Assembly (NCBI RefSeq): GCF_963921235.1
Contig: NC_086097.1
Location: 109,742,001-109,806,000 of the forward strand
DNA: 64,000 nt
Source of the DNA: Mobula hypostoma
Lineage: Eukaryota
Direction of reading: 5' to 3'
The position numbers and the translations under genes are program-made. The notes under the pieces were generated by a model, which was not told the origin of the DNA, searched no databases, and saw only the letters and a program-made list of their open reading frames with translations. Position 1 is the stretch's first letter. The number at the start of each line of letters is the position of its first letter. This document shows positions 21,490-64,000 of the stretch, one piece after another.

Positions 21490-21631
21490 GATAGGACATA
21501 GAACAGTTCAGCACAGTACAGGCCTTTCAGCATACGATGTTGTGCCACTACTTTAACATACTCTGTTCAATTTTCTCCTCAAAAGCACTTCATTTGCTGT
21601 CATCCACGTGTTTATCTAAGAGTCTCTTAAA
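21490..21631 (-). mobile_element. CR1 LINE 3' terminus continuous with the satellite
   Basis: The reverse complement reads TTTAAGAGACTCTTAGATAAACACGTGGATG (FKRLLDKHVD) ...GGCACAACATCGTATGCTGAAAGGCCTGTACTGTGCTGAACTGTTCTATGTCCTAT. This matches the CR1 end at 8219-8362. Confidence 0.9.
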
Positions 21632-24600
21632 TGTTCCCAATCTCTCTGCCTCTATCACTAGCCCTGGCAGGGCATTCCACACATCCACTACACCTTGTGT
21701 CAAAAATCTACTCCTTACATCAGCCCTCCAAACACCTGAAATGTTCCCAATTTCTCTGCCTCTATCACTAACCCTGGCAGGGCATTCCACAAGTCCATTA
21801 CACCCTGCGTAAAAAATCTACCTCTGACATCAGTCCTCCAAACACCAGAAATATTCCCAATCACTCTGTCTCTGTCACTAACACTGGCAGGGCATTCCAC
21901 ACGTCCACTACACCCTGTGTNNNNNNNNNNNNNNNNNNNNNNNNNNNNNNNNNNNNNNNNNNNNNNNNNNNNNNNNNNNNNNNNNNNNNNNNNNNNNNNN
22001 NNNNNNNNNNNNNNNNNNNNNNNNNNNNNNNNNNNNNNNNNNNNNNNNNNNNNNNNNNNNNNNNNNNNNNNNNNNNNNNNNNNNNNNNNNNNNNNNNNNN
22101 NNNNNNNNNNNNNNNNNNNNAAAATCTACTTCTGACATCAGCTCTCCAAACACCTTAAATGTTCATATTCTCTCTGCCTGTATCACTAAAACTGGCAAGG
22201 CATTCCACACAGCCACTACACCCTGTGTCCAAAATGTACTTTTGACATCAGCCCTCCAAACACCTGAAATGTTCCCAATTTCTCTGCCACTATAACTAAC
22301 CCTGGCATTGCATTCAACACGCCCAGTACAACCTGCGTAGAAAATCTACTTCTGATATCTGCCCTCCAAACACCAGAAATATTCCCAATCACTCTGCCTC
22401 TGTCACTAACCCTGGCAGGGCATTCCACACGTCCACTACACCCTGTGTCAAAAATCTGCTTCTGACATCAGCCCTCCAAACACCTTAAATCTTCCCAATC
22501 TCTCTGCCTCTATCACTAACCCTGGCAGGGCGTTCCACACCCCCACTACACCCTGTGATCAAAATCTACTTCTGACATCAGCCCTCCAAACACCTTAAAT
22601 GTTCCCAATCTCTCTGCCTCTCTCCCTAACCCTGGCAGGGCATTCCACACACCCACTACACCCTGTGTCAAAAATCTACTTCTGACATCAGCCCTGCAAA
22701 AACATTAAATGTTCCCATTCTCTCTACCTCTATCACTAACCCTGGCAGAGCATTCCACACGTCCACTACACACTGCGTAAAAAATCTACTTCTGACATCA
22801 GTACTACAAACACGTCAAAAGTTCCCAATCTCTCTGCCTTTGTCACTAAATCTGGCAAGGCATTCCACACGTCCACTACACCCTGTGTCAAAAATCTGCT
22901 TCAGACATCAGACCTCCACACACCTTAAATCTTCCCAATCTCTCTGCCTCTATCACTAAACATGGCAGGGTGTTCAACACACCCACTGCACCCTGTGCCC
23001 AAAATCTACTTCTGACATCAGCTCTCCAAACAACTTAAATGTTCCCAATCTCTCTGCCCCTCTCACTAACCCTGACAGGCCATTCCACACAGCCACTACA
23101 CCCTGTGTCAAAAATCTACTTCTGACGTCAGTCCACCAAACAGGTTAAAAGTTCCCAATCTCTCTGCCTCTGTCACTAAACCTGGCAAGGCATTCCACAC
23201 ATCCACTACACCCTGGGTCAAAAATCTGCTTCAGACATCAGCTCTCCAAACACCTTAAATCTTCCCAATCGCTCTGCCTCTATCACTAACCCTGGCAGGG
23301 CGTTCCACACACCCACTACACCCTGTGTCCAAAATCTACTTCTGACATCAGCTCTCCAAACAATTTAAATGTTCCCAATCTCTCTGCCCCTCTCACTAAT
23401 CCTGACAGGCCATTCCACACAGCCTCTACACCCTGCATCAAAAATCTACTTCTGACATCAGTCCACCAAACAGGTTAAAAGTTCCCAATCTCTCTGCCCC
23501 CCTCACTAACCCTGACAGGCCATTCCACACAGCCACTACACCCTGTTTCAAAAATCTACTTCTGACATCAGCCCTCCAAACACCTAAAACCTTCCCAATC
23601 TCTCAACCTCTATCACTAGCCTTGGCTGAATATTCCACACACCCACTGCACACTGTGTCAACAATCTACTTCTGACATCAGCCCTCCAAACACCTTAAAT
23701 GTTCCAAATCTCTCTGTTTCTGTCACTAACCCTGGCAGGGCATTCCACACGTCCACTACACCCTGTGCCGAAAACTGCTTCAGACATCAGCCCTCCAACC
23801 ACCTTAAATGTTCCCAATCTCTCTGCCTCTATCACTAACTCTGGCAGGGCATTCCACACATCCACTACACCCTGTGTCAAAAATCTACTTCTGACATCAG
23901 CCCTCCAAACACCTTAAATGTTCCCAATCTCTCTGCCTCTATCACAAACCCTAGCAGGGCATTCCACACACCCACTACACCATGCGTAAATATCTGCTTC
24001 TGACATCAGTCCTCGAAACACCTTAAATGTTCCCAGTCTCTCTGCCTTTATAACTAAACCTGGCAGGGCGTTCCACACAACCACTACACCCTGTGTCGAC
24101 AATCTACTTCTGACATCAGCCCTCCAAACACCTTAAATGTTCCCAATCTCTCGGCCTCTATCACTAACCCTGGCAGGGCATTCCACACGCCCAGTACAAC
24201 CTGCGTTGAAAATCTACTTCTGACATCTGCCCTCCAAACACCAGAAATACTCCCAATCACTCTGCCTCTATCACTAAACTTGGCAGGGTATTCCACACAC
24301 CCACTACATCCTGCGTAGAAAATCTACTTCTGACATCTGCCCTCCAAACACCAGAAATATTCCCAATCACTCTGCCTCTGTCACTAACCCTGGCAGGGTA
24401 TTCCACAAGTCCACTACACCCTGTGTCAAAAATCTGCTTCCGACATCAGCCCTAAAAACACCTTAAATCTTCCCAATCTCTCTTCTTCTATCACTAACCC
24501 TGGCAGGACGTTCCAGACACCCACTACACCCTGTGTCCAAAATCTACTTCTGACATCAGCTCTCCAAACACCTTAAATGTTCATATTCTCTCTGCCTGTA

Positions 24601-63600: not shown

Positions 63601-64000
63601 TGTATCAAAAATCTGCTTCTGACATCAGCCCTCCAAACACCTTAAATGCTCCCAATCACTCTGCCTCTATCACTAACCCTTGCAGGGCATTCCACACATC
63701 TACTACACCAGGTGTCAAAAATCTACTTCTGACATCAGCCCTCCAAACACACTTAATCTTCCCAATCTCTCTGCCTCTGGCACTAACTGTGGCAGGGCAT
63801 TCCACACACCCACTACACCCGGTATCCAAAATCTAGTTCTGACATCAGCCCTCCAAATACCTTAAATGTTCCCAATCGCTCTGCCTCTGTCACGAACCCT
63901 GGCAGGGCATTCCACATGTCCACTACACACTGTGTCAAAAATCTGCTTCTGACATCAGACCTCCAAAGACCTTAAATGTTCCCAGTCTCTCTGCTTCTCT
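21626..64000 (-). repeat. Satellite array of 110-bp CR1-derived monomers (roughly 380 copies, continues past window end)
   Basis: The + strand consensus is AAAATCTACTTCTGACATCAGCCCTCCAAACACCTTAAATGTTCCCAATCTCTCTGCCTCTATCACTAACCCTGGCAGGGCATTCCACACACCCACTACACCCTGTGTCA, with period 110 (e.g. 22561, 22671). Head-to-tail with no insertion or inversion noticed. Confidence 0.99.
21921..22120. other. Assembly gap (200 N)
   Basis: Run of N, with satellite monomers in the same orientation on both sides. Confidence 1.

What the first reader, a model, noticed from the sequence alone, without database searches (positions are those of the whole stretch)
21490..64000. >42-kb satellite made from CR1 LINE coding sequence, still attached to its parent's 3' end
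Seen: the minus-strand monomer translates ADVRSRFLTQGVVDVWNALPGLVIEAERLGTFK. This aligns with the ORF2 C-terminus of the CR1 in this window (TEIRKNFFTQREVNLWNSLPQETVEASSLAIFK, ~13756-13854). The leftmost monomer does not restart but continues ...GTFKRLLDKHVD into a CR1 3' UTR and TTCTATGT tail (21490-21625). Inference: this is the birthplace of the satellite, an internal segment of one CR1 copy amplified in place several hundred-fold. TE-derived satellites are known in general, but a preserved founder junction is informative, and I do not know whether this family is described. Caveat: only ~2.7 monomers are contiguous with the junction before the N gap.
Basis: partly seen in the sequence, partly recalled or inferred. 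Interest (0 to 1): 0.85.

Follow-up and report, generated by a model that had tools for sequence, protein, structure and literature searches.

The report
Satellite grown inside one dead LINE
About 920 head-to-tail copies of a 110-base piece of a decayed jumping gene lie between that element's own two ends at one place in the assembly, so this is very likely the preserved birthplace of a satellite DNA array, a known kind of event seen here unusually completely.

Summary
Confirmed and extended. The array continues past the window: about 101 kb, 918 whole 110-bp units. Its far end runs straight into the upstream ORF2 of the same kind of LINE, so both parent ends survive. The outer flanks fit as two halves of one older repeat. 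All 607 genome-wide matches to the unit junction lie in this array. Both terminal units carry the array's private changes (17/17 and 16/17). Unit borders coincide with a 6-7 bp direct repeat of the parent subfamily, and an independent 79-bp family reuses the same junction. A second species label, about 3% diverged, also holds the array. Best reading: a microhomology-seeded duplication in an already decayed CR1-type copy, then in-place growth by block duplication (0.88). The 200-N gap is unbridged, and the window's CR1 at 13.7 kb is not the parent. The kind is known (snake SINE-derived satellites reach about 950 units). This scan noted similar in-situ arrays before, in this genome and another. 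New member of a known kind; interest 0.45.

The parts
21470..21491 (-). 3' outer flank: likely second half of the older dispersed repeat that the LINE interrupted. Its first half lies beyond the window at G000:C1:109865438-109865464
   Evidence: Profile of 29 natural continuations scores best at 21491 for widths 8, 10 and 21 (not 12); 18 of 21 identical to L092; 0 of 29 family tails show the motif; the first half has 286 genome-wide matches at up to 2 mismatches, control 0
21492..21625 (-). 3' part of the founder LINE: last ORF2 codons (stop at 21590-21592), 3' UTR with predicted hairpin, tail octamer at 21496-21503
   Evidence: 73-77% identical to dispersed copies; fold; stop codon
21626..21920 (-). 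3'-terminal 2.7 units of the array (m0, m1 and 75 bp of a third)
   Evidence: m0 has 16 of 17 array-derived states
21921..22120 (.). Assembly gap of 200 N, true length unknown
   Evidence: unit order on both sides is compatible with about one missing unit, not proven
22121..64000 (-). Main array inside the window, about 381 units of 110 bp. It continues beyond the window to G000:C1:109864745 (5'-terminal unit m917), followed by the 5' part of the founder LINE (decayed RT C-terminal region of ORF2) at G000:C1:109864746-109865437
   Evidence: m917 has 17 of 17 array-derived states and the 10-nt deletion; 5' part: tblastx E 5e-43 to the RT-bearing LINE of the window, 70-72% to dispersed copies, collinear with single copies

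Best explanation
A single array of about 920 copies of a 110-bp internal segment sits between the 5' and 3' parts of one 5'-truncated, decayed CR1-type LINE of about 0.94 kb, and it most likely grew there in place. Steps: (1) the LINE inserted into an older dispersed repeat (inferred from the fitting flanks). (2) It decayed: 17 substitutions and a 10-nt deletion relative to its subfamily are fixed in the units (shown; some may be the master's own states). (3) Slippage or unequal exchange between two short direct repeats 110 bp apart made the first dimer (borders shown, event inferred). (4) Repeated duplication of multi-unit blocks, by unequal crossing-over or gene conversion, built 101 kb with no fixed higher-order unit (blocks shown, mechanism inferred). 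(5) The array predates the split from a relative about 3% diverged and has not spread to other assembled loci. It most likely has no selected function.
For: Both parent ends present, same strand, collinear with unexpanded copies around exactly one unit-equivalent. Both ends favour the same older subfamily: 47 vs 18 of 72 diagnostic sites in the 5' part, 8 vs 3 of 16 in the 3' part. Flanks fit one split repeat. 146 of 146 and 607 of 607 junction matches are in this array. Terminal units carry 17/17 and 16/17 derived states and no family-type unit is left at either end. Units are 21.2% and the 5' part 22.6% from the subfamily majority, as expected of one copy. 10 of 19 family copies share 6-7 exact bases at the two borders. 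An independent 79-bp family has the same junction. 68 block duplications of 8-43 units, the closest 0.2-0.3% apart. Contigs of another species label span the unit junction.
Against: No sequence bridges the 200-N gap. The founder's two borders share only 4 exact bases today (6 of 7). No clear target-site duplication (0-2 bp). The flank fit rests on about 10-21 bases: 3 of its first letters could be tail, a T-rich site at 21476 scores nearly as high at width 21, and 21469 scores higher at width 12. The 3' part is 31.5% from the subfamily majority against 22.6% for the 5' part (124 columns). The 79-bp family shows that tandem cassettes can move between copies of this LINE in this genome. Unassembled arrays cannot be excluded.
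Confidence: 0.88

Rival explanations
1. Secondary copy: the tandem arose in another copy of this LINE and was carried into this one by ectopic gene conversion or a circular DNA; the donor is lost or unassembled.
For: The 79-bp units differ by 5.6% between loci while the adjoining LINE 3' parts differ by 27.5% (36 pairs of 9 loci), so such transfer seems to occur in this genome. The assembly may lack some satellite.
Against: No other copy in the assembly. Many 79-bp loci keep a host-type full-length first unit, whereas the 110-bp array has derived states up to 4 bp from its 5' border and no host-type end unit. Units and 5' part are equally far from the subfamily.
Confidence: 0.05
2. Scaffolding join: the 2.7 units left of the gap and the main array belong to different loci or haplotypes, so the two LINE halves are not one element.
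For: The gap is an unbridged 200-N join; no contig spanning it was seen (one search covered only 20700-21800).
Against: The two outer flanks fit one older repeat across the whole 101 kb. 28 of the 30 best matches of the partial unit lie in the left half of the array, and the local order of unit types fits with about one unit missing. No other place in the assembly holds the junction.
Confidence: 0.04
3. Same origin, but the array is (part of) a functional chromosome-specific centromere or pericentromere, with much more sequence hidden in the gap.
For: Single-locus, kept in two species, still turning over, at 110 of 256 Mb. CR1-related centromeric repeats are listed for chicken (table of PMC6947457).
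Against: Summed contig depth over a unit is about 1,100-3,300 times the single-copy flank in three runs (the tool warns this is no copy number), the order of the assembly and not of a megabase array. Units are 14.5% apart with no fixed higher-order repeat. No CENP-B box (recalled motif, weak outside mammals).
Confidence: 0.07

Closest known systems
SINE-derived satellites (sSats) of squamates, Vassetzky et al. 2023, PMC10702118 (read: abstract, background, start of results, passages, discussion)
   Same: Internal segment of a retroposon amplified in place; 70-290 nt units; up to about 950-1000 units per locus; terminal units extend into the parent, in minor variants on both sides.
   Different: Parent here is LINE ORF2, not a SINE. 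One locus instead of tens to thousands; interstitial, not subtelomeric. Units less homogeneous (14.5% pairwise) than long sSat loci (about 94% similar). A border microhomology and the pre-insertion site are identified here; 'direct repeat' has 0 hits in that paper's main text.
Minisatellite initiation at 5-10 bp flanking direct repeats (Haber and Louis 1998, seen only as summarised in PMC6947457 section 3.1, read whole); human TE-derived tandem repeats, Ahmed and Liang 2012, PMC3389668 (passages)
   Same: First duplication between short direct repeats inside a TE; hotspot segments within TE families.
   Different: The product here is a 101-kb array of 110-bp units, and the review doubts that this mechanism covers larger satellite units.
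Chicken HinfI (SCR1) repeat and Cen2/3/4/7/11 repeats containing CR1 sequence (seen only as cited in PMC9659126 and PMC6947457; PMC2928500 not held)
   Same: CR1 ORF2/3' sequence inside a vertebrate satellite.
   Different: As cited, HinfI has a CR1 fragment embedded in the unit; here the whole unit is LINE sequence and the parent's ends remain. Centromere role untested here.
Maize CRM1TR/CRM4TR, Sharma et al. 2013, PMC3648361 (passages)
   Same: Tandem arrays wholly derived from one retrotransposon; independent origins at a similar site; illegitimate recombination proposed.
   Different: LTR elements, (peri)centromeric, 97-98% like the parent; the single-step direct repeats were not found there, and are found here.

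Membership tests
TE-derived satellite grown in place (sSat-like) | Head-to-tail array of a unit shorter than, and homologous to, part of the TE | tested here: met
TE-derived satellite grown in place (sSat-like) | Terminal units continue into the parent TE | tested here: met
   Both ends
TE-derived satellite grown in place (sSat-like) | Physical continuity of the whole locus | tested here: inconclusive
   200-N gap unbridged; indirect support
sSat in the strict sense | Parent is a SINE | tested here: not met
   Parent is LINE ORF2; not filed as an sSat
CR1 clade LINE (parent) | Reverse transcriptase in ORF2 | tested here: met
   5' part matches the RVT_1-bearing ORF of the window's LINE at E 5e-43; the founder's own 104-aa fragment gave no RVT_1 hit
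CR1 clade LINE (parent) | 3' hairpin followed by an octamer microsatellite like ATTCTRTG (PMC8665684, passages) | tested here: met
   Predicted hairpin and TTCTATGT-type tail in the founder and in L008, L121; no shuffle control run
CR1 clade LINE (parent) | Endonuclease domain in the same ORF | not tested
   Founder is 5'-truncated to about 0.94 kb; full-length relatives were not examined
CR1 clade LINE (parent) | RT groups with reference CR1s in a tree, or matches a Dfam/Repbase CR1 | not testable with these tools
   No repeat library on hand; the label CR1 rests on the 3' end and on recall of the ORF2 C-terminal motif
Centromeric satellite | CENP-A occupancy / primary constriction | not testable with these tools
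   No chromatin data
Centromeric satellite | Very long, homogeneous array or fixed higher-order repeat | tested here: not met
   101 kb, 14.5% pairwise, no lag below 13.5%; gap could hide more

The most novel reading that the evidence does not exclude
The array is the chromosome-specific centromeric or pericentromeric repeat of this chromosome, born from one dead LINE whose two ends, insertion site and seeding microhomology all survive. The same LINE subfamily would be a repeated satellite seed showing every stage in one genome: a dimer (C36), a minisatellite that spreads between LINE copies (C82) and a 100-kb array (C1). The repeated-seed part is well supported (about 0.8); the centromere part is the long shot.
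Probability: 0.07. Interest if true: 0.85.

Novelty: new member of a known kind. Interest (0 to 1): 0.45.

Why it matters
The first step of satellite birth is usually erased. Here the founder, the insertion site, the border microhomology and about 920 descendants are all readable, and an independent family reused the same junction with a different fate. That makes it a clean test case for the short-direct-repeat model at satellite scale and for rates of array turnover between two close species. It does not reveal a new mechanism or function.

Tried and rejected
1. The window's LINE at about 13.7 kb as parent: rejected, best nucleotide match 74% over 42 bp. 2. The 29 best genome hits to the 5' part as the parent family: 26 of 29 are a younger sister subfamily, and the founder sides with the older one; divergences (28-39%) were therefore dropped. 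3. The local projection of unit m917 (11 vs 10 diagnostic sites) was misaligned at the deletion; replaced by the global alignment. 4. A fixed higher-order repeat: none. 5. A coding array: unit length not a multiple of 3, no long frame. 6. Zero-length gap: the two sides are 2 bp out of phase, but the unit types differ, so at least about one unit is missing. 7. A target-site duplication: none longer than 2 bp. 9. A DNA search with the 5' flank gave 3 short hits besides itself; uninformative. 10. Run X15 (organism E) shows no depth at unit position 21713, but its single-copy flank is also uncovered; no conclusion on absence. 12. One search failed to align L024 and L002 in the right orientation (2 of 7 loci tried). 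13. L078 dropped out of the 79-bp test (6 of 7 loci scored). 14. Expression, host genes around the array and methylation were not examined.

Full report
Observation. The window is G000:C1:109742001-109806000 of a 3.48-Gb assembly. Earlier scan notes call the host a ray; I did not test this. TRF finds a 110-bp unit at 21629-21917 and 22121-63998 around a 200-N gap. The minus strand of the leftmost unit gives the quoted peptide and continues into a LINE 3' end. The first 200 bp match dispersed copies on many contigs at 73-77%.

Extent. I fetched the next 200 kb. The array ends at C1:109864745 (position 122745 if the window numbering is continued): 916.3 copies right of the gap, all in one orientation, with no other gap. 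Segmentation gives 918 whole units, 784 of them 110 bp, mean pairwise difference 14.5%, and no periodicity below 13.5% at any lag tested. Units are 8.6% from the column majority. There are 68 runs of 8 or more consecutive units duplicated as blocks, up to 43 units long, the closest 0.2-0.3% apart and mostly among units 400-880. The array is old but still turning over; I cannot exclude that the most similar blocks are assembly duplications.

The far end. The last unit passes without a break into about 690 bp of decayed ORF2 (C1:109864746-109865437) that matches the window's RT-bearing LINE (tblastx E 5e-43; RVT_1 E 6e-12 in that LINE). Unexpanded copies align to the 5' part and the 3' part around a single unit-equivalent of about 120 bp (5 of 7 loci tried). 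Of 29 copies picked on the 5' part alone, 27 have a match to the terminal unit or 3' part downstream on the same strand, and 11 align through to the tail. 26 of those 29 are a younger sister subfamily. The founder sides with the older one at 47 vs 18 of 72 sites (5' part), 14 vs 2 of 18 (unit m0) and 8 vs 3 of 16 (3' part).

One insertion. The 23 bases just outside the 5' end belong to a dispersed repeat with 286 matches (control 0). In 11 of 29 such copies the sequence four bases on reads TCTGCAG within one mismatch (4 exact). That motif starts at 21491, the first base after the LINE tail, and follows 0 of 29 family tails. A profile of the 29 continuations puts this site in the top 3e-5 (width 10) to 1e-3 (width 12) of 323,000 background positions, and it matches L092 at 18 of 21 bases. 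Caveats: at width 12 another nearby site scores higher, at width 21 one scores almost as high, and three letters could be tail. There is no target-site duplication beyond 2 bp. I read this as one LINE that split an older repeat, with the whole array inside it.

Single locus. An exact 31-mer over the unit junction has 146 matches in the genome and a 24-mer with 2 mismatches has 607; 146 and 607 of them are in this array. This holds for the assembly only.

Founder or recipient. At 17 sites the array majority differs from the subfamily majority (60 sampled units). The 5'-terminal unit has the array state at 17 of 17 and the 3'-terminal unit at 16 of 17, and both have the 10-nt deletion. No family-type unit is left at either end, which a donated cassette would usually leave. 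Units are 21.2% from the subfamily majority (111 of 120 sampled aligned) and the 5' part 22.6%; the short 3' part is further, 31.5%. About 16% fixed plus 8.6% since expansion adds up to roughly the 5' part's value, so growth began well after insertion (inference; the founder's master may differ from the majority).

Seed. In 10 of 19 family copies the two unit borders share 6-7 exact terminal bases (TTTAAG); the founder's borders share 4 exact, 6 of 7. A search for the family-type junction found 91 matches. They are a 79-bp unit in short arrays in many different copies of this LINE on C82 and five other contigs, plus one diverged dimer on C36. These units keep the family state at 9-10 of 11 covered array-derived sites (6 loci) and lack about 31 bases that the 110-bp unit has, so neither derives from the other. 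The same junction formed at least twice.

Other genomes. Runs of a second species label (X5, X6; one sample) hold the flank and LINE 3' end with 23 differences in 636 bases and 19 in 600, against 0 in 551 for run X1, which may be the assembly's own sample (table 8). They also hold contigs that span the unit junction, a go-back joint 21735 to 21628, and summed depth about three orders above the flank. The array therefore predates that split, in line with 8.6% unit depth against about 1.5% per lineage. No unexpanded orthologue was seen.

Gap. Not bridged. The partial unit's best matches lie in the left half of the array (28 of 30), and the order of unit types at five nearby places fits about one missing unit.

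Literature. TE-derived satellites are established (PMC6947457, section 3.1 and table; PMC9659126 and PMC12628747, passages). The closest case is the squamate sSats (PMC10702118; abstract, background, passages, discussion), with up to about 950-1000 units and, in minor variants, both parent termini. Initiation at 5-10 bp direct repeats is a published model (as summarised in PMC6947457). I found no description of this family in searches. A shark paper (PMC11406177, passages) and a batoid genome preprint (10.64898/2026.10.27.761883, passages; supplements not seen) treat satellites only at class level or for the Y chromosome. Dfam, Repbase and subscription journals were not searchable, so the family may be in a repeat library. 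Unchecked scan notes report a 74-kb SINE-born and a 13.5-kb retrotransposon-born array in this genome, and a CR1-derived 49-bp satellite in another.

Verdict. A real, well-preserved satellite birthplace (0.88), most likely neutral. New member of a known kind, interest 0.45. A centromeric role is untested and unlikely (0.07).

Noticed in passing
G000:C82:16.7-21.7 Mb (L055-L084, L087, L088), C84 (L086), C85, C88, C89, C176; C36:4430568 (L085): A 79-bp minisatellite with the same junction sits in many different copies of this LINE subfamily. Units differ by 5.6% between loci but the adjoining LINE 3' parts by 27.5%, which suggests spread between paralogous copies by ectopic conversion within one chromosome region.
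   Followed up: partly
L028:1913-2349 (C55), L071:2436-2864, L076:1793-1908, L087:3275-3870 (C82): A 42-bp tandem (3-14 copies) at another fixed position of the same LINE subfamily, three times in loci that also carry the 79-bp array: a second hotspot.
   Followed up: partly
window 9416-10382: 47-bp unit, 20.6 copies, 92% matches, inside a decayed LINE whose sequence continues on the right side and matches the unit region: a small in-place expansion in the same window.
   Followed up: partly
window about 12000-14030 (+): Young 5'-truncated LINE with long RT frames (12246-12917, 12918-13754; RVT_1) and a three-unit tail, apparently inserted in a Tc1-like transposase remnant (frame 11384-11947; label recalled).
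   Followed up: no
window 17119-17217: Two copies of a 49-bp unit, 96% matches.
   Followed up: no
L068 and L005: Other copies of the subfamily carry deletions at the same G-rich spot as the array's 10-nt deletion, so that deletion is recurrent and a weak marker on its own.
   Followed up: no
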